Assembly (NCBI GenBank): GCA_016935525.1
Contig: JAFGQU010000012.1
Span: forward strand, 1,248 to 65,247
Direction of reading: 5' to 3'
DNA: 64,000 nucleotides
Source: Candidatus Omnitrophota bacterium
Lineage (GTDB): Bacteria; Omnitrophota; Gorgyraeia; Duberdicusellales; 4484-171
Below the pieces are notes generated by a model. It did not search any database and was not told where the DNA came from. It saw only the letters and a list, made by a program, of their open reading frames with translations. The first letter of the stretch is position 1, and the number at the start of each line of letters is the position of its first letter. Made by a program: the position numbers and the translations under genes. This document shows, piece after piece, positions 3,436-43,518 of this stretch.

Positions 3436-4013
3436 AAGATCTATTACTGATCGTAGTCTCAACGGTACTGATTAATAATTTTGTATTAAGTTATTTTTTG
3501 GGGATCTGTCCGTTTCTGGGGGTATCGGGAAAATTATCTTCGGCAATCGGGATGGGATTAAGCGTCATTTTTGTCATGACGCTCTCTTCGAGTATCAGCT
3601 GGCTGATCTATCATCTGATCCTTATCCCCCTTGAGATCACTTTTTTATCCTATGTCGTCTTTATCCTGGTGATCGCTTCTTTGGTTCAGATCGTCGAGAT
3701 GTTTATCCGTAAATATTCTCCGCCGCTTTACCAGGCATTGGGGATCTATTTACCGTTGATCACGACTAACTGCGCTATTTTAGGATGCGCGTTATTCATG
3801 ATCGCCCGTAACTACGCGTTTTTACCGGCAGTCGTGTTTGGATTTTCCGCCGGGGTAGGGTTCACGTTAATATTGCTGGTCATGGCCGGTATCAGGGAAG
3901 AACTCCAGTTCAATGATGTCCCCGGCGTATTAAAAGGCGCTCCGATCACTCTGATCACCGCCGGGTTACTGGCGCTTTGTTTCATGGGATTTTCGGGGTT
4001 GATCAGCTCATAA
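3432..4013 (+). CDS. rnfA: Rnf complex subunit A (RnfA/NqrE family)
   Basis: LGICPFLGVSGK motif, polytopic membrane protein; translationally coupled to rnfE. Confidence 0.85.
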   Translation: MKDLLLIVVSTVLINNFVLSYFLGICPFLGVSGKLSSAIGMGLSVIFVMTLSSSISWLIYHLILIPLEITFLSYVVFILVIASLVQIVEMFIRKYSPPLYQALGIYLPLITTNCAILGCALFMIARNYAFLPAVVFGFSAGVGFTLILLVMAGIREELQFNDVPGVLKGAPITLITAGLLALCFMGFSGLISS

Positions 4014-31995: not shown

Positions 31996-32538
31996 TTGAG
32001 GGGAAGAAATAGAGTATATATGGAGATGGAAAGGGTACTGGAGACGCCGAAAAAGATCAATCAAGAGTTTCTCGTCGAACATCCCCGGTTTGTAACCCAA
32101 AAACTGGTAGTCCGGCCGGCCGAAATATTTCGCGGCCCGCGGTTAGTGTTAAACGGAGAAGTACAACCGGAAATAGAGGGGAAATTTACCGTCACCGACG
32201 ATATCGGGAAAGAAACCGTGGTACGGTTGCTTTATAATATCGTCGATCCGGTCCCTATTATCGAGATCGACGGTGATCAGATATCGCTGGTCAAACCATT
32301 CCTGTGGTATCAACGGGTATGGGTCGGGTTACCGTTATTATTGATCTTTGTCGGTAAACTGTTCGGCGCGTTGTTAGGTATCGTTGCCGTACTCGTGAAC
32401 ATCCGCGTGTTTCGTAGCGATAAACCGCTGATCATCAGGTACCTGCGTATCGCTTGGGTCAATATCATGATGGCGCTGGTGTATTTCGTCCTCGCCTCGA
32501 GTTTTATGATGTTTATCAATTTGCTGAGACTGAAGTGA
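31996..32538 (+). CDS. Hypothetical membrane protein (N-terminal soluble domain, two C-terminal TM helices)
   Basis: ORF with good coding periodicity; no recognisable domain. Confidence 0.4.
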   Translation: MRGRNRVYMEMERVLETPKKINQEFLVEHPRFVTQKLVVRPAEIFRGPRLVLNGEVQPEIEGKFTVTDDIGKETVVRLLYNIVDPVPIIEIDGDQISLVKPFLWYQRVWVGLPLLLIFVGKLFGALLGIVAVLVNIRVFRSDKPLIIRYLRIAWVNIMMALVYFVLASSFMMFINLLRLK

Positions 32539-33971: not shown

Positions 33972-34688
33972 ATGGGAAATGATATTGTGAAAATCATAAT
34001 ATATTCTTTATTTTCCGGGATTACCATATTTCTCGGAGGATTACTGGCATTGCTATTTGAAAAAATGCCAAGATGGAATATGAGAGAGTACATAGTACAT
34101 ACTTCAATCGCTTTTGGCGGAGGAGTGTTGGTTGCCGCGGTTGCGTTTGTCCTTACCCCGCGTGGTATCGAACTGTTTGCGGTACAGAAATTCACGTTGA
34201 TATTTCTTGCCGGCTCGGTCACGTTTTTTCTTATCGACCGGGGTCTCGAACGAAAAGGCGGTGCCGTCGCTCAGGTATTGGCGATGATGATGGATTTCGT
34301 ACCGGAAGCGATCGCGTTAGGTGCGGTATTTGCGCACGATCATCGGACCGGATTACTGTTAGCGTTGTTTATCGGGTTACAGAATTTGCCGGAATCGTTT
34401 AACGCCTATTCAGACCTGCGAAGCAGCGGGTTCGGCCCGGTACGGATATTGTCGGCCTTTGTCCCGTTAAGTCTTACCGGTATCGCCGGCGCGTTGTTAG
34501 GGAACCGTTTCCTCATCGATAGGCCTCAACTTATTGCTGGGTTGATGTTGTTTTCTGCCGGGGGGATATTGTATCTTATCTTCCAGGATATCGCGCCGTT
34601 ATCGAAAGTGAGACGGCGCTGGGGTCCGGCTTTGGGGGCGACGATAGGATTTGTTATCGGGATGATCGGGACAAAAATGTTGGGATAA
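33972..34688 (+). CDS. ZIP family metal (Zn/Fe) transporter
   Basis: Eight-TM ZIP topology, conserved HD..H and GLQNLPE motifs (FAHDHRTG, GLQNLPESF). Confidence 0.75.
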   Translation: MGNDIVKIIIYSLFSGITIFLGGLLALLFEKMPRWNMREYIVHTSIAFGGGVLVAAVAFVLTPRGIELFAVQKFTLIFLAGSVTFFLIDRGLERKGGAVAQVLAMMMDFVPEAIALGAVFAHDHRTGLLLALFIGLQNLPESFNAYSDLRSSGFGPVRILSAFVPLSLTGIAGALLGNRFLIDRPQLIAGLMLFSAGGILYLIFQDIAPLSKVRRRWGPALGATIGFVIGMIGTKMLG

Positions 34689-34691
34689 ATA

Positions 34692-34768
34692 AGAACGTAA
34701 CGCGGGACGCGACACGCGTAACGCGTGGAAATCCCTCCGGGCAGTTAATTCCTAGTAAATTTGTAAAG
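34692..34768. repeat. ACGTAACGCGG word repeat + TAATYCCTAGTAAATTWGTAAAG module
   Basis: aacgtaacgcgggacgcgacacgcgtaacgcgtgg ... ttaattcctagtaaatttgtaaag; related copies at 43522-43560 and 32905-32930. Confidence 0.65.
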
Positions 34769-34815
34769 TTCCATAAAAACCCGTTCTCGTTGAAAAGAAC
34801 GGGCAGATTGTGTTC

Positions 34816-34911
34816 TGGCGGAGAGGGTGGGATTTGAACCCACGGTCCCACTTTAGGGCGGGACTTCCGATTTCGAATCGGACCCATTCAACCGGGCTCT
34901 GGCACCTCTCC
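34816..34911 (-). tRNA. tRNA-Ser (anticodon CGA), long variable arm
   Basis: Reverse complement reads GGAGAGGTGCCAGAGCCCGGTTGAATGGGTCCGATTCGAAATCGG...GTGGGTTCAAATCCCACCCTCTCCGCCA; encoded CCA; hairpin terminator downstream at 34775-34800. Confidence 0.85.
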
Positions 34912-35286
34912 GATACATAGCGGATAGCTGTTAGCGGATAGAACGATTTATATGAAAAAATTCTCTTCTCGTCTAATCTCTAGCCGTTTGCCGTTATACG
35001 CTGGATTTCTGATAAGTTTACCGTGAACCGATGATTCCGTCAAGGTGGCCCTTAATAACCAGATCACACCTCGTAGGTGTGATCTTTGAGGTTTTTTAAC
35101 GACGGGCTGAACGGGCAAACGGGATAACTTGATAATCCGTCAAGATTGAGGATTCGAAAGGTTTTTAGACTCACGACGTACGACTTTCTGTTTTTTCTTG
35201 CTACTTACTATCGGATAATTTCTGGTCTACGGACTATCGAATGTGGTCTCTGGTCTTTCGTCTCACCGCTATCCGCTCACCGCTAT

Positions 35287-35715
35287 TCAAAAGTCCTGCC
35301 GTATCGCGATTGCTTCGTCTTCGTCAAGCCGGCCGTCATGGTTGATATCGTACATCTGTTCGAAATGGGTCACGGCCGGGGCGGATCCCGATTTCTTTAT
35401 TTCTTTATATTTATCGTATAATAACCGTTTGGTCTCGGCCGGCATTAACCAGCCGTCTTTGTCTCGATCGTATTGTTGTTCGGCGAAGTTAGAGACCATA
35501 TATTGGTAGGTACGCCATTCCCGGCGTTTGTCTATCCATTTGTTTGATACCCGGTCCCGTTCGGTTTGGAACAGGTTGTATTGGACTTTTTCGGTACGAG
35601 TGATTTTCCCGTCACGGTTTAAATCGACCGGATGGTACCGGTGGGTATGGGCGCATCCCGGCATAAGAGAAATAGTCATCAGGCCTACCATGAGGATGTT
35701 CAGCCGTTTGTTCAT
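35287..35715 (-). CDS. EF-hand calcium-binding lipoprotein
   Basis: Lipobox LMPGC; two DxDxDG-type loops (DLNRDGKITRTE, DINHDGRLDEDE). Confidence 0.6.
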   Translation of the reverse strand: MNKRLNILMVGLMTISLMPGCAHTHRYHPVDLNRDGKITRTEKVQYNLFQTERDRVSNKWIDKRREWRTYQYMVSNFAEQQYDRDKDGWLMPAETKRLLYDKYKEIKKSGSAPAVTHFEQMYDINHDGRLDEDEAIAIRQDF

Positions 35716-37542: not shown

Positions 37543-38490
37543 ATGGATGTAGTATTTTTCGCGATAATCAACCTTTTTTTCATTATCCTGCTCGGGTTCT
37601 ATCTGTACCGGAAAACGGTCCTTACCGAAGAATCGTTGAAATTCCTCACGTTTTTCGTGATCAACCTGTCGGTACCGTTTTTGTTTTTCTCGACGATCAT
37701 CCGTACGTTCGATCCGCGTCATAGCCCGCACGTGACGACGTTTTTAGTGTTAAGTGTTACGGTATTTCTTGTCGGTATCGCCGTCGGGTATATTTTTTCG
37801 TTGTGGTCGCCGCGCCCGGTACGCCGGGAATTCCTGAGCCTTGCCGCGTTCCAAAACGGCGGGTATTTACCGATGAACCTGGCGTTATTCCTGTTTTCGG
37901 CCGCGGATAAAGATACGTTCTTGGTCTATATATTTTTGTATCTTTTAGGGTTTAACGTATTGATGTGGTCGATCGGGAGTTTCCTGATATTCCGGAATAA
38001 AGATGCCAGGTTCGAGTTGCGGTCGTTATGTACGCCGCCGGTATTGAGTACTGCTATCGCGGTCGTGCTGGCGTATACCGGGTACGCCCGGTACGTACCG
38101 GAGGTAGTGTTGAGTCCGATGAAGATCATCGGTGACGTAAGTTTTCCGGTTTCAATGATCATCCTGGGGGCGTGGCTTGCGAAAAGCCGGATACCGCGCG
38201 GGTTTTCCGAGATCAAACCGTTACTTAATGTCGCGATAGTGAAACTGGTGATCGTACCGGCACTGTTTTTTGTCGCGGCGCTTAAACTGGATATCATGCC
38301 GTTTTTAGGTTTGTTTATCGTGATCGAAGCCAGTATGCCGTCAGCGGCGACGATGCCGATCATCGCGAACATACATAACGCCAATAGTGAGTTTACTTCT
38401 CAAGGAGTGTTTTTTACCCATCTGGTAGCGCTCGTTACGGTACCGGTATGGATCGAGTTATATTTGAAAGTAACCGGGTTTATGTTATGA
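37543..38490 (+). CDS. AEC (auxin efflux carrier) family transporter
   Basis: 10-TM protein with AEC-family N-terminal motif (AIINLFFIILLGFYLYRKTVLTEESLKFLTFFVINLSVPFLFF). Confidence 0.7.
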   Translation: MDVVFFAIINLFFIILLGFYLYRKTVLTEESLKFLTFFVINLSVPFLFFSTIIRTFDPRHSPHVTTFLVLSVTVFLVGIAVGYIFSLWSPRPVRREFLSLAAFQNGGYLPMNLALFLFSAADKDTFLVYIFLYLLGFNVLMWSIGSFLIFRNKDARFELRSLCTPPVLSTAIAVVLAYTGYARYVPEVVLSPMKIIGDVSFPVSMIILGAWLAKSRIPRGFSEIKPLLNVAIVKLVIVPALFFVAALKLDIMPFLGLFIVIEASMPSAATMPIIANIHNANSEFTSQGVFFTHLVALVTVPVWIELYLKVTGFML

Positions 38491-38948
38491 AAGTTGTTGC
38501 CACCCATCGTAAAGCACGGCATAATTACGATATCCTGGAAACCTATGAAGCCGGGATGGAACTTAAAGGGATGGAAGTGAAATCGTTACGGTTACGCGGC
38601 TGTTCCATCGACGAAAGTTTTGCCCGGGTCGAAAACGGTGAAGTATTCTTATATAACATGCATATCCCCGAATATAGTCAGGCATCGTATTTCCAGCCGG
38701 ATACCCGGCGTATCCGTAAACTTTTGTTGCATAAAAAAGAAATCAAACGGTTGATCGGCGTGACGACACAGAAAGGGTTGACCCTTATTCCGTTAAAAGT
38801 CTATTTTACCGACCGGGGGGTCGCGAAAGTACAGATCGCCGTCGGAAAAGGGCGTAAACTGTATGATAAACGGAAAAAGATGAGGGCGGAGATCACTAAA
38901 AAAGAAGCTGAACACGAAATGCGCCGCCATGCCAAACGTAAAGGTTGA
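38487..38948 (+). CDS. smpB: SsrA-binding protein
   Basis: KVVATHRKARHNYDILETYEAGMELKGMEVKSLR matches SmpB nearly residue for residue; start at ATG 38487. Confidence 0.9.
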   Translation: MKVVATHRKARHNYDILETYEAGMELKGMEVKSLRLRGCSIDESFARVENGEVFLYNMHIPEYSQASYFQPDTRRIRKLLLHKKEIKRLIGVTTQKGLTLIPLKVYFTDRGVAKVQIAVGKGRKLYDKRKKMRAEITKKEAEHEMRRHAKRKG

Positions 38949-39015
38949 TAAATATCGTAAACCCGGTATAATTTTAAATTCATATAGAGTTCTTTAAAAA
39001 TATAATAAAATGTCC

Positions 39016-39285
39016 GGGCCGTGAGCTTCCCGATGTCGCCCGACGGCTTATCGGGATCAGCCTGAAGAAGAGCATTAAGGTTGCTGACAATCGGCTCCAG
39101 GCAGCGAGGGCTTCCGAGCCCAAGGTTGCTGGTTCAACGCTCGGATGTGGTTCGTTGACATTGATTTTGTGAAGTTTCGTCCAAGAACGTGCGGAGGTAG
39201 GCTGTTCGGGAACGAGTCGTCGGATACACTGACCCCTCGGGGTGATTTCGCCTACGGCGAAAAGTGTATACAGTTCCAGCACGGC
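39016..39285 (+). ncRNA. tRNA-Lys-derived RNA-like locus (degenerate tRNA-Lys copy with ~65-nt and ~130-nt insertions at D-loop and T-loop positions), preceded by a TATAAT box
   Basis: GGGCCGTGAGC matches the 5' acceptor/D-stem of the downstream tRNA-Lys; gagcccaaggttgctggttc and ttccagcacggc match its anticodon-3'/T-stem and acceptor-3' segments; a -10 box at 39001-39006; occupies the position where ssrA is often found. Confidence 0.4.
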
Positions 39286-39319
39286 ATATATAATGTTTTT
39301 TTTAAATTGATAAATATTC

Positions 39320-39392
39320 GGGCCGTTAGCTCAATTGGCGGAGCAGGGGCCTCTTAAGCCCAAGGTTGCTGGTTCGATTCCAGCACGGCCCA
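39320..39392 (+). tRNA. tRNA-Lys (anticodon CTT)
   Basis: GGGCCGTTAGCTCAATTGGCGGAGCAGGGGCCTCTTAAGCCCAAGGTTGCTGGTTCGATTCCAGCACGGCCCA; cloverleaf verified by hand. Confidence 0.9.
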
Positions 39393-39398
39393 CGTACC

Positions 39399-39483
39399 GC
39401 GCGGGTGGCGGAACTGGCAGACGCGCTAGATTCAGGTTCTAGTGGGTAACTCCGTGGGGGTTCAAATCCCCCCTCGCGCACCA
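39399..39483 (+). tRNA. tRNA-Leu (anticodon CAG), long variable arm, encoded CCA
   Basis: GCGCGGGTGGCGGAACTGGCAGACGCGCTAGATTCAGGTTCTAGTGGGTAACTCCGTGGGGGTTCAAATCCCCCCTCGCGCACCA. Confidence 0.9.
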
Positions 39484-39484
39484 T

Positions 39485-39565
39485 TTATAGTCGATAGGAT
39501 ATAGTCTCTAGTCGCTGGTCTTTAGTCTCCAGTAAAAAAGACCAGAAACCAGAGACTGAAGACTG
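39485..39565. repeat. CTAGTC/CTGGTC word-repeat hairpin (tagtctctagtcgctggtctttagtctccagt-aaaaaa-gaccagaaaccagagactgaagactg)
   Basis: Direct reading; could also act as the terminator of the tRNA cluster. Confidence 0.7.
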
Positions 39566-39571
39566 CTTGCC

Positions 39572-39994
39572 ATGCATAAATTCGAGATCATCGAACATGC
39601 CGCGGATGTAGGATTAAGAGTATACGGCAAGGACTATAAAGAGTTGTTTTTAAACGCGGCCTGGGGAGCATGCGCGCTCCTGGTCGATGATTTGCCTTCC
39701 GAGAGAGATACCCGTCCGGTCGAACTTACCGCCTCGACAATCGAAGACCTGCTTGTCGATTGGCTGAACGAACTGGTTTCGTTATTTTACGCGGAAAAGT
39801 TTTTACCGAAAGATATCGAAATACAGATCCATCAGGAAGAGTCGAGCTGTGAACTTGTTGCCGAACTTATCGGCGGACAATATGATCCGTATACACAAAA
39901 AGTGAATATGGAGGTAAAAGCCGCAACCCACCATAAACTGCATATCGAACAAAAAGAAGAATATCTCGAAACGCAGATAATTTTTGATGTCTAA
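39572..39994 (+). CDS. Archease (RtcB activator)
   Basis: MHKFEIIEHAADVGLRVYG N-terminal archease signature; paired with rtcB. Confidence 0.8.
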   Translation: MHKFEIIEHAADVGLRVYGKDYKELFLNAAWGACALLVDDLPSERDTRPVELTASTIEDLLVDWLNELVSLFYAEKFLPKDIEIQIHQEESSCELVAELIGGQYDPYTQKVNMEVKAATHHKLHIEQKEEYLETQIIFDV

Positions 39995-39999
39995 CGTCA

Positions 40000-40135
40000 C
40001 GTCACATAGACACATAGTCACAAGGTCACACGTGTCTAAAAAAACAGAATATCAATTTGTCTGGATTCTTTCGTGTGACGTGTGTCGTGCTTGCCCCGTT
40101 GCGTAAACTCAAGGGGTGACTGTGTGACTTGGAAG
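40000..40135. repeat. GTCACACG-family composite repeat (includes gcttgccccgttgcg, the inverse of cgcaacggggcaagc at 48141-48155)
   Basis: gtcacgtcacatagacacatagtcacaaggtcacacgtg ... gtgtgacgtgtgtcgtgcttgccccgttgcg ... ggggtgactgtgtgac. Confidence 0.7.
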
Positions 40136-40140
40136 CATTT

Positions 40141-41589
40141 ATGAGTATCCCACTCGAAAAATTAACCGAGTATAAGTACCGTATCCCTAAAAGTTATAAA
40201 GCGGGGATGCGGGTCGACGGTATTGTCTATATCGATGAGAAGATGTTGCCGTCACTCGTTGATGATAACGCGTTAGATCAGGTCGCGCATGTCGCGTTCC
40301 TTCCCGGTATTGTGAAATATTCGTTGGCAATGCCCGATATCCATTGGGGATACGGGTTTTGTATCGGCGGAGTTGCCGCGACCGATATCGCCCAAGGCGG
40401 GGTGATATCACCGGGCGGGGTCGGGTTTGATATTAATTGCGGTGTAAGGCTCTTACGTACGGATCTTGATGTTTCCGACCTGAGCGGAAAAATAGAAAAA
40501 ATAGTGAACAACCTTTATCATCATGTCCCTTCCGGAGTCGGGTCAAAAGGCGAGGTAAAGGTGTCCCGGCAGGAACAGAAACGGTTGATGATCAACGGCG
40601 CTCAATGGGCCGTATCTCGCGGGTTCGGTACGCCGGACGACCTGGAATATTGCGAAGAAAACGGCGCGATGGAAGGCGCTGACCCCGATACCGTATCCGA
40701 CCGGGCGTATGAACGAGGGAAACAACAGGCCGGGACATTGGGAAGCGGGAACCATTTTCTTGAAGTACAACGGGTTGAAGAGATATTCGATATTGACGCG
40801 GCAGGAGTATTAGGGGTCTGGCCTGGACAGATAATGGTAATGGTCCATACCGGGTCACGCGGGTTCGGATATCAGATCTGTGATGAATACGTACGGCTCA
40901 TGCGGAACTGTCTTACCAAATATAAAATAGAAGTACCGGACCGGCAACTTGCCTGCGCGCCGGTAAATAGCCCGGAAGGGAAACAGTATCTTGGCGCGAT
41001 GCGCGCTGCGGCAAATTATGCCTGGGCAAATCGGCAGGTGATCACTCATCTGGTACGGGAAAGTTTTGAAAAAGTGTTTTCAAAAAGCTGGCAGACGATG
41101 GGGATGGACCTTGTGTATGATGTCGCGCATAATGTCGCGAAAATAGAGACTCATACCGTAGACGGTGAGAAAAAGAAATTATGTGTCCATCGTAAAGGCG
41201 CGACCCGTTCGTTCGGCCCGAACAACAGCGATATCCCTTCGAAATATCAGGGTATCGGTCAGCCGGTGATCATTCCCGGAGATATGGGCCGGGCGTCGTA
41301 TCTGTTGGTCGGGACCGCTCATGCGGAAGAAGAGACGTTCGGTACGACCTGTCATGGCGCCGGCCGGTTGAAATCACGGCATGAAGCGTTGAAGACTATC
41401 AGGTTCGATCAGTTGATGAAAGAGTTGAAAGAAAAAGGGATCGAAGTCCGGGCGACCGGGAAAAAGACGATCGTGGAAGAAGCGCCGCAGGCGTATAAAG
41501 ATGTGAACGATGTGGTCGATATCGTCCATCGTGCCGGCCTGTCTAAACGGGTGTGCCGGATGAAACCTCTTTGCGTGGTGAAAGGATAA
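40141..41589 (+). CDS. rtcB: RNA-splicing ligase RtcB (3'-phosphate/5'-OH RNA ligase)
   Basis: Conserved metal- and GTP-binding motifs (GGVGFDINCGVRLL, HNVAKIE, HAEEETFGTTCHGAGR). Confidence 0.9.
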   Translation: MSIPLEKLTEYKYRIPKSYKAGMRVDGIVYIDEKMLPSLVDDNALDQVAHVAFLPGIVKYSLAMPDIHWGYGFCIGGVAATDIAQGGVISPGGVGFDINCGVRLLRTDLDVSDLSGKIEKIVNNLYHHVPSGVGSKGEVKVSRQEQKRLMINGAQWAVSRGFGTPDDLEYCEENGAMEGADPDTVSDRAYERGKQQAGTLGSGNHFLEVQRVEEIFDIDAAGVLGVWPGQIMVMVHTGSRGFGYQICDEYVRLMRNCLTKYKIEVPDRQLACAPVNSPEGKQYLGAMRAAANYAWANRQVITHLVRESFEKVFSKSWQTMGMDLVYDVAHNVAKIETHTVDGEKKKLCVHRKGATRSFGPNNSDIPSKYQGIGQPVIIPGDMGRASYLLVGTAHAEEETFGTTCHGAGRLKSRHEALKTIRFDQLMKELKEKGIEVRATGKKTIVEEAPQAYKDVNDVVDIVHRAGLSKRVCRMKPLCVVKG

Positions 41590-41684: not shown

Positions 41685-42956
41685 ATGTTGGACGCGAAGT
41701 TTATAAGACAGAATCCGGATGTCGTGCGCGAGGCGCTTAAAAAGCGGAACGATCGTTACGATCTTGACGCGTTTTGCGAGTTAGACGAGAAACGCCGGCT
41801 GATTTTGGCGAAGGTCGAGGAGATAAATGCCGCCCAGAACCGGATCGATCAGGAAATACAATCGTTGATCAAAACAAAAAAAGATCCCAAACCGAAGATA
41901 GAGGAAGGGAAAAAGCTTAAAACCGATCTTGTCCGGATCAACGGCGAATACGCCCGCCTTAACGAACAGTTTAAAACTGAACTTTTAAAAATACCGAATA
42001 TCCCGCACGAGTCTCTCCCGGTAGGCGACGCCTCGCACAATAAGGTCGTCCGGGAAGGCGGTACGAAAAAAGAATTTAAATTCGCTCCGCGTGACCATAT
42101 CGAGTTAGCCGAGGCCCTCGATATCATCGATTTCAAACGCGCGGCAAAACTTTCCGGTTCGAATTTCGTGTTATTTAAAGGCGACGGCGCGCGGTTAGTC
42201 CGGGCGTTGATCAATTTCATGCTGGATATCCATACCGACGAACACGGGTATAAAGAGATCGTCCCCCCGGTTATCGTGAACCGCGATTCGATGACCGCGA
42301 CCGGCCAGTTGCCGAAATTGGAAGAGGATATGTATGTGACCAAAGAGGATGGCCTGTTTCTGATCCCGACCGCGGAAGTCCCGCTCACCAATATCCATCG
42401 TAACGATGTGTTGGAGTATGATGAGTTACCGATACAATATACCGCCTATACACCCTGTTTTCGCCGGGAAGCCGGTTCTTACGGGAAAGATACCCGGGGC
42501 CTTATGCGGGTACATCAGTTCGATAAAGTGGAACTGGTAAAGTTCGTCAAGCCCGATACTTCATATGACGAACTTGAAAAACTGTTGGCACATGCGATAA
42601 AGATCATTGAATTGTTGGGGATACCGTACCGGGTATTGTTGCTCGCAAGTGGTGATATCAGTTTTGCCGCGGCAAAATGTTATGATATCGAGATCTATGC
42701 GCCCGGCCTTGACCGGTGGCTGGAAGTATCGAGTTGTTCGAATTTCGAAGATTTCCAGGCCCGCCGCGGGAATATCCGGTATAAAGACCCCGATATGGGA
42801 AAGATGCAGTTTGTCCATACGTTAAACGGGTCGGGCGTGGCTCTGGCGCGGCTGATCGTCGCGATACTTGAGAATTATCAAAACGAAGACGGTTCGATAG
42901 AAATACCCGAACCGTTAAGGAGGTATATGAATGGCAAAGTACGAATCGAGAAGTAA
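41685..42956 (+). CDS. serS: Serine--tRNA ligase
   Basis: N-terminal coiled-coil tRNA-binding arm plus class II aaRS motifs (FRREAGSYGKDTRGLMRVHQF, GSGVALARL). Confidence 0.9.
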   Translation: MLDAKFIRQNPDVVREALKKRNDRYDLDAFCELDEKRRLILAKVEEINAAQNRIDQEIQSLIKTKKDPKPKIEEGKKLKTDLVRINGEYARLNEQFKTELLKIPNIPHESLPVGDASHNKVVREGGTKKEFKFAPRDHIELAEALDIIDFKRAAKLSGSNFVLFKGDGARLVRALINFMLDIHTDEHGYKEIVPPVIVNRDSMTATGQLPKLEEDMYVTKEDGLFLIPTAEVPLTNIHRNDVLEYDELPIQYTAYTPCFRREAGSYGKDTRGLMRVHQFDKVELVKFVKPDTSYDELEKLLAHAIKIIELLGIPYRVLLLASGDISFAAAKCYDIEIYAPGLDRWLEVSSCSNFEDFQARRGNIRYKDPDMGKMQFVHTLNGSGVALARLIVAILENYQNEDGSIEIPEPLRRYMNGKVRIEK

Positions 42957-43518
42957 TTATCTGATCACGCTGGCGAAATTCGTTTTCTTTCTCATCTTTT
43001 TCTGTTTTATGGTAAAACTTACCGGGAACCTGCTTTCGGATATGCAGTCGATCGCTACGTTGAGCCTGAAAGTGTTCTATGTCTCCATATTCTCGGCGCT
43101 CATGTTTTACCTGTTTATCGCCGATCTGAACACTATTTACGACCATATCCAGAACTTTTTTTTCCGTCATTCGTTCGTAAACCTTATCTTACCTTCGGTA
43201 CTGGTGCTTCTGGCGCTGGGATATTTTATTATTCCCAAGATATGGAGCTTATCGTTCGATAAAGATACGTTTGTATTTTTAGGCGGGTTTATCCTGATGA
43301 TCCATCTTATCTATATCGCGCAACAGACTCGCGAGGGGAGTTTCGTGGGATTTGTGAACTATCTGTTCATGTTCAGTACATTATATGTGGTCAGTATCTT
43401 CTTGTTCGCGGTCTATCTACGGGTCGCGTTCCCGCTTAATATCGGTGACCTTATCGTCCACAGTTTTAACGATAGTACCCGCCTGGTCGTGGATCTGTAT
43501 AAGCAGATCGTGCATTAA
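42931..43518 (+). CDS. Hypothetical integral membrane protein
   Basis: Five or six TM helices; no recognisable domain. Confidence 0.4.
   Translation: MAKYESRSNYLITLAKFVFFLIFFCFMVKLTGNLLSDMQSIATLSLKVFYVSIFSALMFYLFIADLNTIYDHIQNFFFRHSFVNLILPSVLVLLALGYFIIPKIWSLSFDKDTFVFLGGFILMIHLIYIAQQTREGSFVGFVNYLFMFSTLYVVSIFLFAVYLRVAFPLNIGDLIVHSFNDSTRLVVDLYKQIVH

What the first reader, a model, noticed from the sequence alone, without database searches (positions are those of the whole stretch)
39016..39285. A promoter-equipped, tRNA-Lys-derived structured locus sits exactly where tmRNA would be expected, downstream of smpB
Between smpB (stop 38948) and tRNA-Lys (39320) lies a ~270-nt segment preceded by a TATAAT box (39001-39006). 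It begins GGGCCGTGAGC, the 5' acceptor/D-stem of tRNA-Lys. It also contains gagcccaaggttgctggttc (39117-39138, matching the tRNA-Lys anticodon-stem 3' side and T-stem) and ttccagcacggc (39274-39285, matching the T-loop and acceptor 3' side). Relative to the intact gene there are a ~65-nt insertion at the D-loop position and a ~130-nt insertion splitting the T-loop. The 3' acceptor is imperfect (G2 opposite A, no CCA). It could be a decayed tRNA duplicate or integration scar, a tRNA-like scaffold carrying inserted domains, or the remnant of a replaced ssrA. No canonical tmRNA features were found by eye (G3:U70, T-arm + ACCA 3' end, tag ORF ending ...AA-stop).
Basis: partly seen in the sequence, partly recalled or inferred. 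Interest (0 to 1): 0.65.

Follow-up and report, generated by a model that had tools for sequence, protein, structure and literature searches.

The report
Remodelled, non-decoding copy of tRNA-Lys
The 270-base segment after smpB is not a tmRNA but a rearranged extra copy of the neighbouring tRNA-Lys gene, with two large insertions and no anticodon, that a few closely related uncultivated Omnitrophota share; it may be a young tRNA-derived small RNA, and its function is unknown.

Summary
Window 39016-39287 is colinear with the adjacent tRNA-Lys(CTT) gene. It has a 60-nt insertion in the D-loop (39029-39088) and a 137-nt insertion in the T-loop (39137-39273). The anticodon loop is reduced to a UCCG tetraloop, the 3' acceptor strand is imperfect, and promoter-like sites lie upstream.

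It is not tmRNA. ARAGORN and Rfam (E up to 10) find nothing there. G3 pairs with C70, and no ORF is conserved.

The "tmRNA position" argument fails. An outgroup (SmpB 70% identical) has smpB-promoter-tRNA-Lys-tRNA-Leu-archease with no element. The element therefore sits where this lineage keeps tRNA-Lys, and it arose by tandem duplication that included promoter sequence.

Homologues exist only in three or four close relatives, with different module make-up. Two contigs whose smpB genes are 99% identical already differ.

The inserted, non-tRNA domains are 83% and 69% identical between two species whose smpB four-fold sites are only 43% identical. Every stem substitution seen keeps its pair, though there are too few sequences for statistical support.

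Best reading (about 0.5): a selectively retained, transcribed, non-decoding tRNA-Lys paralogue. Main rival (about 0.3): a functionless by-product of recombination. An integration scar, an intron-bearing tRNA and an ssrA remnant are all unlikely.

The parts
38448..38948 (+). smpB (the database form starts at 38487 and is 153 aa)
   Evidence: Pfam SmpB E 1.4e-53. A 100% identical protein, P0001, is annotated in a Candidatus Omnitrophica MAG.
38945..38972 (+). P1, the conserved promoter-like site TTGATA-16-TATAAT that overlaps the smpB stop. This is the ancestral tRNA-Lys promoter.
   Evidence: Matches 11 of 12 consensus positions. The same site is found in L082 and L001. In L002, L085 and L097 the same spot, read by eye, lies directly upstream of a plain tRNA-Lys.
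38979..39006 (+). P2, the promoter-like site TTCATA-16-TATAAT.
   Evidence: It is specific to the window. TTTTAAATTCATA (38972-38984) is repeated as TTTTAAATTGATA (39300-39312) in front of the real tRNA-Lys.
39016..39028 (+). Copy of the tRNA-Lys 5' acceptor strand, positions 8-9 and the 5' side of the D-stem (GGGCCGTGAGCTT)
   Evidence: 11 of 12 identical to tRNA-Lys positions 1-12; alignment A5.
39029..39088 (+). 60-nt D-loop insertion. It holds hairpin 1 (39028-39056), helix 2 (39059-39061 with 39083-39085) and a second AAGGTTGCTG piece derived from the tRNA (39077-39086).
   Evidence: 50 of 60 identical to L001; 36 of 43 aligned positions identical to L082; 0 of 500 shuffles score as well. 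All 31 pair cells are paired, with one compensatory A-U to C-G change. Covariance model R1 finds it only in the window, L084, L001 and L082.
39089..39121 (+). Remainder of the D-loop (AATCGG), then a degenerate 3' side of the D-stem, then the anticodon-arm equivalent GGGCU-UCCG-AGCCC (39108-39121). There is no anticodon.
   Evidence: Alignment A5. Pair probabilities of the stem are 0.61-0.71. The L083 unit and the L082 element have different hairpins at this position.
39122..39136 (+). Variable region, 5' side of the T-stem (GCTGG, 39128-39132) and first four T-loop bases (TTCA)
   Evidence: Part of the exact 19-nt repeat 39117-39135 = 39357-39375.
39137..39273 (+). 137-nt T-loop insertion. 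Domain 1 (39137-39221) has no well-conserved fold. Domain 2 is a three-way junction: closing stem 39224-39230 with 39263-39269, hairpin at 39233-39242, hairpin 39246-39252 with 39256-39262.
   Evidence: 95 of 137 identical to L001 3808-3946, 0 of 500 shuffles as good. 22 pairs are all paired in both species, with 3 compensatory changes; controls with the partners slid give 30-55% paired and none. The L001 copy folds with z -4.4, the window copy with z -0.2.
39274..39287 (+). T-loop 3' bases, 3' side of the T-stem and imperfect 3' acceptor strand (TTCCAGCACGGC + AT)
   Evidence: 12 of 12 identical to tRNA-Lys positions 59-70. Acceptor pair probabilities are 0.98-1.0.
39267..39303 (+). P3, a promoter-like site (TATACA-16-TATAAT, 39267-39294), followed by a run of eight T (39296-39303) between the element and tRNA-Lys
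   Evidence: sequence read directly. No hairpin-plus-T terminator was called.
39320..39393 (+). Intact tRNA-Lys(CTT), the donor and paralogue of the element
   Evidence: ARAGORN; Rfam tRNA 65.8 bits.
39399..39483 (+). tRNA-Leu(CAG), in the same cluster
39572..41589 (+). Archease (39572-39994) and RtcB RNA ligase (40129-41589). They are conserved downstream neighbours of the tRNA-Lys cluster.
   Evidence: Pfam Archease E 7.9e-35 and RtcB E 5.2e-178. The same neighbourhood is seen in L085-L091, L093 and L097.

Best explanation
The segment is a mosaic, non-decoding paralogue of the adjacent tRNA-Lys(CUU) gene.

**Origin (shown by comparison).**
- The ancestral order was smpB, promoter, tRNA-Lys, tRNA-Leu, archease, rtcB.
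- In one narrow Omnitrophota lineage, tRNA-Lys was duplicated in tandem together with leader or promoter sequence.
- Unequal recombination between copies then produced chimeric units.
- The upstream copy, freed from decoding, gained a 60-nt domain in the D-loop and a 137-nt domain in the T-loop.
- It also lost its anticodon loop, which is now a UCCG-capped stem, and part of its 3' acceptor strand.
- Its tRNA-derived flanks stay identical to the functional copy of the same genome. That points to continuing gene conversion, and the locus keeps gaining and losing units even between near-identical strains.

**How it works (inferred).**
- It is transcribed from the ancestral tRNA-Lys promoter P1, and in this genome also from P2. 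It is the first product of the tRNA-Lys/tRNA-Leu transcription unit.
- Its 5' and 3' ends close the molecule through a 5-bp remnant of the acceptor stem.
- The inserted domains branch out from what used to be the tRNA elbow.
- It cannot decode. It is unlikely to be aminoacylated, because it has no anticodon, a mismatched acceptor end and a disrupted T-arm.
- The inserted domains are kept by purifying selection, so the RNA probably acts as a small structured RNA built on a tRNA frame, binding a protein or another RNA.
- Its partner and physiological role are unknown.
For: **Origin**
- The matches to tRNA-Lys are colinear.
- The outgroup L097 has the same gene order without the element.
- Promoter and leader pieces are duplicated in the window. 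In L082 about 35 nt upstream of the element and of the tRNA are repeated.

**One homologous family**
- The D-loop insertion is shared by the window, L001 and L082. The T-loop insertion is shared by the window and L001.
- L083 carries an insertion-free tRNA-Lys-like unit with the same GGCTCCARGCAG motif.

**Selection**
- smpB four-fold sites are only 0.43 identical (window/L001) and 0.37 (window/L082), which is near saturation.
- The non-tRNA insertions are 83% and 69% identical (window/L001); for window/L082, 36 of 43 aligned positions (84%) are identical.
- Every substitution in the proposed stems keeps the pair, with 1 and 3 compensatory double changes.

**Expression signals**
- Three promoter-like sites were found on the + strand (four in the region) against 0.9 expected. 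P1 is conserved across relatives, and a T-run follows the unit.

**Fold**
- Acceptor pairs have probability about 1.
- A tRNA-compatible fold lies 4.1 kcal/mol above the minimum free energy.
- The L082 homologue folds into a clean structure closed by a 7-bp acceptor stem (z -3.2).

**Gene conversion**
- In each species, the T-stem of the element matches that species' own tRNA-Lys: U-A in the window, A-U in L001.

**Real sequence**
- An independent assembly reproduces it.
Against: - There are no expression data.
- Only three or four genomes carry homologues, so covariation is not statistically supported. In control shuffles, 156 of 500 and 58 of 500 reach the observed values.
- The whole window element is not unusually stable (z -1.16).
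- Domain 1 of its T-loop insertion folds no better than shuffled sequence (z -0.2), whereas the L001 copy gives z -4.4. This could mean decay in this genome.
- The T-stem has about zero probability in the thermodynamic ensemble.
- The architecture differs in every genome. It is fused in the window, split in L001 and has a different 3' half in L082. Units come and go between contigs whose smpB genes are 99% identical. That is also what functionless recombination products would look like.
- The acceptor stem is imperfect here.
Confidence: 0.5

Rival explanations
1. The segment is a functionless by-product. It is a tRNA-Lys pseudogene mosaic produced by repeated unequal crossing-over in a recombination-active tRNA cluster. 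It stays recognisable because gene conversion from the functional copy refreshes it, and because it may be younger than the species divergence suggests, for example if it spread by recombination among close relatives.
For: - The module make-up differs in every genome and even between contigs whose smpB genes are 99% identical.
- The tRNA-derived flanks are identical to the host's own tRNA-Lys.
- The acceptor end is imperfect, and there is no anticodon.
- The window's T-loop domain 1 folds no better than shuffled sequence.
- The sister clade shows the same locus expanding and contracting in about 131-nt units among contigs whose SmpB proteins are identical.
- Covariation is not significant.
Against: - The inserted domains have no donor copy for gene conversion. 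They are still 69-83% identical where four-fold sites are 43% identical, and the neighbouring spacer between smpB and the element aligns barely better than shuffled sequence.
- All stem substitutions preserve pairing.
- A non-canonical tRNA-Lys-like unit sits first after the smpB promoter in all four lineages of the clade: the window, L082, L083 and probably L081.
Confidence: 0.3
2. The segment is a scar left by a mobile element that used tRNA-Lys as its attachment site. The partial tRNA copies are att-site remnants, and the insertions are what remains of the element.
For: - tRNA and tmRNA genes are classic integration sites (PMC3146451; PMC11915505).
- In the sister clade the array after tRNA-Lys ends in a 12-nt copy of the tRNA-Lys 3' end. 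In one strain (L088) unrelated DNA follows the array.
- tRNA-Ser(TGA) in the window has a 3'-end repeat about 100 nt downstream.
Against: - The duplicated pieces here include the 5' end of the tRNA and promoter or leader sequence, and they lie upstream of the intact gene. Canonical integration leaves a 3' fragment downstream.
- There is no integrase or other cargo. No ORF in the element is conserved, and Pfam gives no recombinase match for any of the 13 larger ORFs scanned between 31 and 50 kb; three of them have no match at all.
- The insertions have no match in viral contigs (strict patterns), phage records or plasmid records.
- They do not recur elsewhere in the 64-kb window.
Confidence: 0.07
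3. The segment is a tRNA gene interrupted by introns. These would be either a degenerate group I intron in the T-loop, as in intron-form tmRNA, or archaeal-type bulge-helix-bulge introns rejoined by the neighbouring RtcB and archease. The mature product would be a tRNA.
For: - T-loops are known group I intron sites in tmRNA (PMC11915505). An Omnitrophota relative (L021) has such an intron in its tmRNA.
- RtcB and archease are encoded 180 nt downstream of the cluster.
Against: - Removing both insertions still leaves no anticodon loop and a mismatched acceptor end.
- Rfam Intron_gpI gives no match at E up to 10.
- 137 nt is far below the smallest known intron-form size. PMC11915505 gives 545 bp as the smallest intron-form tmRNA gene and 293 bp as the mean intron.
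- There is no similarity to the L021 intron.
- By inspection, no bulge-helix-bulge can be drawn that is conserved between the window and L001.
Confidence: 0.03
4. The segment is a divergent or degenerate tmRNA (ssrA), or the remnant of one.
For: The only support is position. ssrA follows smpB in several distant Omnitrophota.
Against: - ARAGORN finds no tmRNA, and Rfam gives no tmRNA-clan match at E up to 10. The same tools find ssrA easily in other Omnitrophota at 126-188 bits.
- Every recognisable piece is tRNA-Lys, not ssrA.
- G3 pairs with C70, not U.
- The T-arm is split.
- The only ORF (39145-39357) is in a different frame and is not conserved in L001.
- Close relatives have tRNA-Lys, not ssrA, at this position.
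Confidence: 0.02

Closest known systems
Pseudo-tRNAs, that is non-decoding tRNA paralogues such as Bacillus cereus tRNA-Other (PMC3399842)
   Same: Both are tRNA-derived genes that do not serve translation. Both are encoded at a recombination or island hot spot next to tRNA genes, and both may have a regulatory role.
   Different: From my own knowledge, tRNA-Other keeps a cloverleaf of tRNA size and can be aminoacylated. This RNA is about 270 nt, has 60-nt and 137-nt expansions in the D- and T-loops, has no anticodon loop and has an imperfect acceptor end. There is no sequence relationship. Function is untested here.
tmRNA (ssrA), in its standard, permuted and intron forms (Rfam RF00023 and relatives; PMC11915505)
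   Same: Both have tRNA-like termini with a large non-tRNA body. Both sit downstream of smpB, as ssrA does in other Omnitrophota. The intron form is also interrupted in the T-loop.
   Different: The tRNA frame here is Lys, not Ala (G3-C70). The main insertions are in the D- and T-loops rather than replacing the anticodon arm. There is no tag ORF, no intact T-arm and no covariance-model match.
Arrays of tRNA or ssrA fragments left by integrative islands, such as the Dehalococcoides ssrA islands (PMC3146451)
   Same: Both show partial copies of a tRNA-type gene beside the intact gene at a variable locus.
   Different: Those arrays are 3'-end direct repeats downstream of the gene that bound islands carrying integrases. 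Here the 5' end plus leader is duplicated upstream, with no cargo.
Bacterial Y RNA-like YrlA (a tRNA-mimicking module encoded near rsr and rtcB; from my own knowledge, not read here)
   Same: Both are non-coding RNAs with tRNA-like parts encoded close to an rtcB operon.
   Different: No Ro/TROVE gene was found among the ORFs scanned from 31 to 50 kb. The ends of this RNA form an acceptor stem, not a Ro-binding stem. No Rfam match was found at E up to 10.

Membership tests
tmRNA (ssrA) | Match to a tmRNA covariance model or detection by ARAGORN | tested here: not met
   There is no match at the gathering threshold or at E up to 10 over 38900-39420, and ARAGORN finds none. The same tools find ssrA in nine other Omnitrophota loci.
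tmRNA (ssrA) | Alanine-type acceptor stem with G3:U70, plus an intact T-arm next to the 3' end | tested here: not met
   G3 pairs with C70. The T-loop is split by 137 nt. The 3' strand ACGGCAU leaves G2 opposite A.
tmRNA (ssrA) | Tag reading frame conserved among relatives | tested here: not met
   The only + strand ORF (39145-39357) runs into tRNA-Lys. The ATG in L001 is shifted by 2 nt, and the peptides are unrelated.
tRNA (RF00005) | Cloverleaf with a 7-nt anticodon loop, recognised by the tRNA covariance model | tested here: not met
   There is no RF00005 match over 39016-39287 at E up to 10. The anticodon arm is GGGCU-UCCG-AGCCC.
tRNA or tmRNA gene with a group I intron in the T-loop | Group I catalytic core (match to RF00028), with splicing restoring a functional gene | tested here: not met
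   There is no Intron_gpI match at E up to 10. The insertion is only 137 nt and has no similarity to the L021 intron. The exons would not give a functional tRNA.
Integration scar (attL/attR at a tRNA gene) | Direct repeat of the tRNA 3' end downstream of the intact gene, bounding foreign DNA, usually with an integrase | tested here: not met
   The repeats include the 5' end and leader and lie upstream. There is no cargo or recombinase. There is no match in phage or plasmid records, or for strict patterns in viral contigs.
Pseudo-tRNA or tRNA-derived small RNA (functional) | Descent from a tRNA gene | tested here: met
   The matches to tRNA-Lys are colinear and exact, and the outgroup lacks the extra copy.
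Pseudo-tRNA or tRNA-derived small RNA (functional) | Sequence or structure conserved beyond the neutral level | tested here: inconclusive
   The insertions are 69-83% identical against 43% at four-fold sites, and all stem changes keep the pair. With only two or three sequences, covariation is not significant.
Pseudo-tRNA or tRNA-derived small RNA (functional) | Stable transcript and a phenotype or binding partner | not testable with these tools
   No RNA-seq data or genetics are available. Only promoter-like sites were found.
Bacterial Y RNA (YrlA-like) | Ro-binding stem formed by the RNA termini, and a neighbouring rsr (TROVE) gene | tested here: not met
   The termini form an acceptor stem. 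No TROVE domain was found in the ORFs scanned. There is no Rfam match.

The most novel reading that the evidence does not exclude
This narrow Omnitrophota lineage has evolved a family of expressed RNAs built on a tRNA-Lys frame. Conserved modules are plugged into the D-loop and the T-loop, that is, at the former tRNA elbow. Modules are shuffled, gained and lost by recombination at the smpB / tRNA-Lys / archease-rtcB locus. The RNA would work with one of its conserved neighbours. It could be a ligand or sponge for SmpB or for tRNA-processing enzymes. It could also be a substrate or regulator of the RtcB-archease RNA-repair pair. If so, it is a young and still evolving counterpart of the way tmRNA arose from a tRNA.
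Probability: 0.2. Interest if true: 0.65.

Novelty: new variant of a known kind. Interest (0 to 1): 0.38.

Why it matters
If the RNA is functional, it is a rare snapshot of a new structured RNA being born from a tRNA gene. The intermediate forms are all still present in sister genomes: an insertion-free unit, a unit with only the D-loop module, a unit with only the T-loop module, and the fused form. The example is also useful for annotation. A promoter-equipped, tRNA-ended RNA downstream of smpB is not necessarily ssrA, and tRNA clusters in metagenome-assembled genomes can hide mosaic paralogues that tRNA and tmRNA finders skip. If the RNA is not functional, it documents very fast recombinational turnover at a tRNA cluster in uncultivated bacteria.

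Tried and rejected
1. **tmRNA.** ARAGORN and Rfam (gathering threshold, and E up to 10) find nothing at the site.
2. **Any other Rfam family**, including ribozymes, Y RNA, SRP, 6S, RNase P and group I introns. No match in the window element, in L001 3440-4800 or in L082 1200-1910.
3. **Coding.** The ORFs inside the element are not conserved.
4. **Relict group I intron.** No similarity to the T-loop intron of the L021 tmRNA.
5. **Hammerhead-like three-way junction in domain 2.** The junction strands of 2, 3 and 0-1 nt do not fit the hammerhead core (inspection only).
6. **Archaeal bulge-helix-bulge intron.** No conserved motif can be drawn (inspection only).
7. **Mobile or repeated element.**
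   - No second copy in the window or in the 80 related loci held at that stage. Covariance model R1 later searched the window and 44 of the loci then held.
   - Strict patterns gave 0 hits in viral contigs and in JGI metagenome contigs.
   - No blastn match in phage or plasmid records.
8. **More homologues through neighbouring proteins.**
   - SmpB relatives gave L081-L092, L096 and L097. Archease relatives gave L093-L095.
   - Only L001, L082 and L084 (the same sequence as the window) carry the insertion modules. L083 carries an insertion-free tRNA-Lys-like unit, and L081 breaks off inside a unit that already looks non-canonical.
9. **Ro/TROVE or integrase genes nearby.** None found.
Full report
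**1. What is there**

The window comes from an uncultivated Candidatus Omnitrophota bacterium. Its SmpB is 100% identical to a protein annotated in an NCBI Omnitrophica MAG on a 117-kb contig, and the nearest genomic relatives are Omnitrophota MAGs.

The gene order, all on the + strand, is as follows:
- TylF-type methyltransferase
- membrane transporter
- smpB (ends at 38948)
- the flagged segment
- tRNA-Lys(CTT), 39320-39393
- tRNA-Leu(CAG), 39399-39483
- archease
- RtcB
- seryl-tRNA synthetase

An independent Logan assembly of run SRR13394437 (L084) reproduces the flagged segment and tRNA-Lys base for base. The arrangement is therefore not a binning or assembly artefact.

**2. Check of the observation**

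Pieces of tRNA-Lys occur in the segment in the right order:

| tRNA-Lys positions | Window coordinates | Identity |
|---|---|---|
| 1-12 | 39016-39027 | 11 of 12 |
| 43-52 | 39077-39086 | 10 of 10 |
| 38-56 | 39117-39135 | 19 of 19 (E 1.3e-5 in the window) |
| 59-70 | 39274-39285 | 12 of 12 |

A multiple alignment with tRNA-Lys and with related units from other genomes (A5) places two insertions:
- a 60-nt insertion between tRNA positions 13 and 14 (39029-39088);
- a 137-nt insertion inside the T-loop (39137-39273).

The anticodon arm is reduced to GGGCU-UCCG-AGCCC (39108-39121), so there is no anticodon. The 3' acceptor strand is ACGGCAU, which gives five Watson-Crick pairs, then G2 opposite A and G1 opposite U.

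Three promoter-like sites lie on the + strand; four were found in the region against 0.9 expected in shuffles:
- P1, TTGATA-16-TATAAT, at the smpB stop;
- P3, in front of the real tRNA-Lys.

**3. It is not tmRNA, and the position argument fails**

ARAGORN finds no tmRNA in the 64 kb. Rfam 15 gives no match to any family at 39016-39287, either at the gathering thresholds or at E up to 10.

The same tools readily find ssrA directly downstream of smpB in nine more distant Omnitrophota loci, at 126-188 bits. One of them (L021) is interrupted by a group I intron in the T-loop, which is a known gene form (PMC11915505).

None of the closer relatives (L001-L015) has ssrA within 3 kb of smpB. The closest ones place tRNA-Lys there:
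- L002 and L085-L090 (SmpB 72-73% identical) and L091 (71%) have smpB followed by tRNA-Lys.
- L097 (70%) has exactly the window's order, smpB, promoter, tRNA-Lys, tRNA-Leu, archease, without any extra element.

The element therefore occupies the ancestral tRNA-Lys slot. It is an addition made from tRNA-Lys, not a replacement of ssrA.

**4. Relatives of the element**

Homologues were found only in the window's immediate clade, where SmpB is 85-88% identical.

- **L001.** The modules are separate.
  - Unit A (3612-3690) is the tRNA 5' end plus the D-loop module, and it ends in a T-run.
  - Unit B (3751-3955) is the first 57 nt of tRNA-Lys, then the T-loop module, then a degenerate 3' end with a terminator-like hairpin.
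  - An intact tRNA-Lys follows.
- **L082.** This is a 125-nt element (1267-1391).
  - It has the same 5' end and D-loop module but a different 3' half.
  - It has a perfect 7-bp acceptor stem and folds cleanly (z -3.2).
  - About 35 nt of leader in front of it is repeated in front of the intact tRNA-Lys.
- **L083.**
  - Its smpB is 99% identical in nucleotides to L001's.
  - Directly after the smpB promoter it carries a 77-nt tRNA-Lys-like unit. That unit has an intact acceptor stem and T-arm, but a long hairpin replaces the anticodon arm.
  - It shares the motif GGCTCCARGCAG with the window element.
  - L001 lacks this unit.
- **L081.** The contig breaks off inside a first unit that already looks non-canonical.

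A covariance model of the D-loop module finds nothing else in the 45 sources searched: the window and 44 of the loci then held. Strict sequence patterns for both modules find nothing in viral or JGI metagenome contigs. blastn finds nothing in phage or plasmid records.

**5. Origin**

The data fit tandem duplication of tRNA-Lys together with upstream sequence, followed by unequal recombination among copies.
- In the window, promoter-region strings are repeated in front of the element and in front of tRNA-Lys (TATAAT...TTTAAATTSATA and TTGATAAATAT).
- The 3' part of the D-loop insertion contains a second copy of the tRNA motif AAGGTTGCTG. The element is therefore itself a chimera of at least two partial copies.
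- In each species, the tRNA-derived flanks equal that species' own tRNA-Lys. For example, one T-stem pair is U-A in the window and A-U in L001, in both the element and the gene. This indicates continuing gene conversion.
- The locus is unstable over very short timescales, as L001 against L083 shows.
- A sister clade shows the same instability in another form. Behind its tRNA-Lys lies an array of about 131-nt units that varies from one to at least five copies among contigs encoding an identical SmpB protein.

**6. Functional or not?**

*For function*
- smpB four-fold degenerate sites are only 43% identical (window/L001) and 37% (window/L082), so neutral sites are close to saturation.
- The inserted domains cannot be refreshed by gene conversion from the tRNA. 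They are nevertheless 50 of 60 identical (D-loop module, window/L001), 36 of 43 aligned positions identical (window/L082) and 95 of 137 identical (T-loop module, window/L001). In each case 0 of 500 shuffles align as well.
- The spacer between smpB and the element aligns barely better than shuffled sequence for window/L001.
- Every substitution in the proposed stems keeps the pair. There is one compensatory change in helix 2 of the D-loop module, and three in the T-stem and domain 2 of the T-loop module. Controls with the partners slid give 17-55% pairing and at most one double change.
- A non-canonical tRNA-Lys-like unit is first in line after the conserved promoter in all lineages of the clade.

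*Against function*
- With two or three sequences the covariation is not significant. In control shuffles, 156 of 500 and 58 of 500 reach the observed values.
- The whole window element is not unusually stable (z -1.16).
- Domain 1 of the window's T-loop module has lost the strong fold seen in L001 (z -0.2 against -4.4).
- The T-stem is not populated in the predicted ensemble, although the acceptor pairs are. A tRNA-compatible fold costs 4.1 kcal/mol more than the minimum free energy.
- The architecture is different in every genome.
- There are no expression data.

**7. Mechanism I commit to (about 0.5)**
- The element is a retained, transcribed, non-decoding paralogue of tRNA-Lys.
- It is made as the first product of the tRNA-Lys/tRNA-Leu unit, from the ancestral promoter P1 and in this genome also from P2.
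- A remnant of the acceptor stem closes the molecule.
- Two conserved inserted domains project from the former elbow.
- It cannot decode and is unlikely to be charged.
- Its role is most likely to bind a protein or another RNA. No partner can be named from sequence alone.

Shown: the descent, the insertions, the conservation above the neutral level and the promoter-like sites. Inferred: transcription, the fold and function.

**8. Rivals**
- **Functionless recombination by-product (about 0.3).** The turnover and the partial decay favour it. The conservation of the inserts argues against it.
- **Integration scar (about 0.07).** The duplicated parts are the wrong end of the gene and lie on the wrong side. 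There is no cargo, no recombinase and no match in mobile-element collections.
- **Intron-bearing tRNA (about 0.03).** The exons would not make a tRNA. There is no group I core and no conserved bulge-helix-bulge.
- **tmRNA or its remnant (about 0.02).** See section 3.

**9. Comparison with known kinds**
- **Pseudo-tRNAs.** The element works like, and is best filed beside, pseudo-tRNAs and other tRNA-derived small RNAs such as B. cereus tRNA-Other (PMC3399842). It differs from them in size and in having expansions in both the D- and T-loops.
- **tmRNA.** It resembles tmRNA only in the general idea of a tRNA frame with a large added body.
- **Y RNA.** The neighbouring archease-rtcB pair invites comparison with the Y RNA (YrlA) found in rtcB operons. 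That comparison is from my own knowledge. There is no Ro gene, no Ro-binding stem and no model match.

**10. Verdict**
- This is a real and correctly described sequence feature.
- The tmRNA angle is refuted.
- The most likely identity is a lineage-restricted, mosaic tRNA-Lys paralogue that may be a young structured RNA.
- Interest is moderate. The evolutionary series of forms is attractive, but distribution is very narrow, function is unproven and a neutral explanation remains viable.

Noticed in passing
L085-L090 and L002 (for example L088 3191-3769; L086 3077-3256): In the sister clade (SmpB 73% identical), the intact tRNA-Lys is followed by an array of about 131-nt units. Each unit holds a 9-bp stem (GGACCCAAC / GTTGGGTTC) around an A-rich bulge and a UUCG-capped 7-bp hairpin. 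Copy number runs from 1 to at least 5 among contigs with an identical SmpB protein. In L085-L087, read directly, the last unit ends in TCCTGCACGGCC, a 12-nt copy of the tRNA-Lys 3' end; L089 and L090 have the same 305-nt spacing as L086. In L088 unrelated DNA follows instead of archease. This may be an att-type hot spot or a second family of tRNA-like repeats.
   Followed up: partly
L001 4230-4690 and L082 1510-1807: Between tRNA-Lys and tRNA-Leu, these relatives carry 300-520 nt that the window lacks. In L001 this includes two partial copies of the tRNA-Leu 5' end (GCGCGGATGGCGG..., GCGCGGGTGGCGGAAAC...). One of them can close with CCCGCAU, which has the same "...GCAU" acceptor defect as the window element. 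Both genomes share small hairpin motifs such as GGGGCAGCGCCCC and GTCCGAAGGAC. No Rfam match was found.
   Followed up: partly
L021 2932-3600: The tmRNA gene of another Omnitrophota MAG is interrupted in its T-loop by a group I intron (Rfam Intron_gpI, 61.6 bits). This is a known gene form (PMC11915505).
   Followed up: partly
window 48432-48690: tRNA-Ser(TGA) (48432-48520) and its terminator are followed, about 100 nt downstream, by a copy of the tRNA 3' end (exact 13-nt repeat CCTCCCTCTCCGT at 48620-48632; a looser match from about 48609) and a second terminator-like hairpin. It looks like a small att-type remnant or a local duplication.
   Followed up: no
window 39503-39557: A 21-nt inverted repeat (86% complementary, 13-nt loop) lies between tRNA-Leu and the archease start codon, with no T-run after it. 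L001 has a related hairpin after its tRNA-Lys. It may be a processing or regulatory hairpin that links the tRNA unit to archease-rtcB.
   Followed up: no
window 39262-39275: The 3' strand of the closing stem of domain 2 contains the perfect 8-bp DNA palindrome TGTATACA, which is conserved in L001. In the window it overlaps the -35-like hexamer of P3. It could also be a protein-binding site at the DNA level.
   Followed up: no
window 33972-35715 compared with L082 1914-3561: The ZIP transporter, tRNA-Ser(CGA) and EF-hand protein lie upstream of smpB in the window but downstream of tRNA-Leu in L082. L082 also lacks archease-rtcB at that site. Genome rearrangements in this clade therefore have breakpoints at the tRNA cluster.
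   Followed up: no
L001 4046-4145: A run of 100 N sits inside the T-loop of the intact tRNA-Lys in the L001 record. This is probably a scaffold gap caused by the repeated tRNA-Lys copies, so the exact unit order in L001 should be treated with some caution.
   Followed up: no
window 43779-47813 (- strand): A 1344-aa ORF has no Pfam match at E up to 0.001. The ORFs at 42931-43518 and 31996-32538 also have no Pfam match.
   Followed up: no
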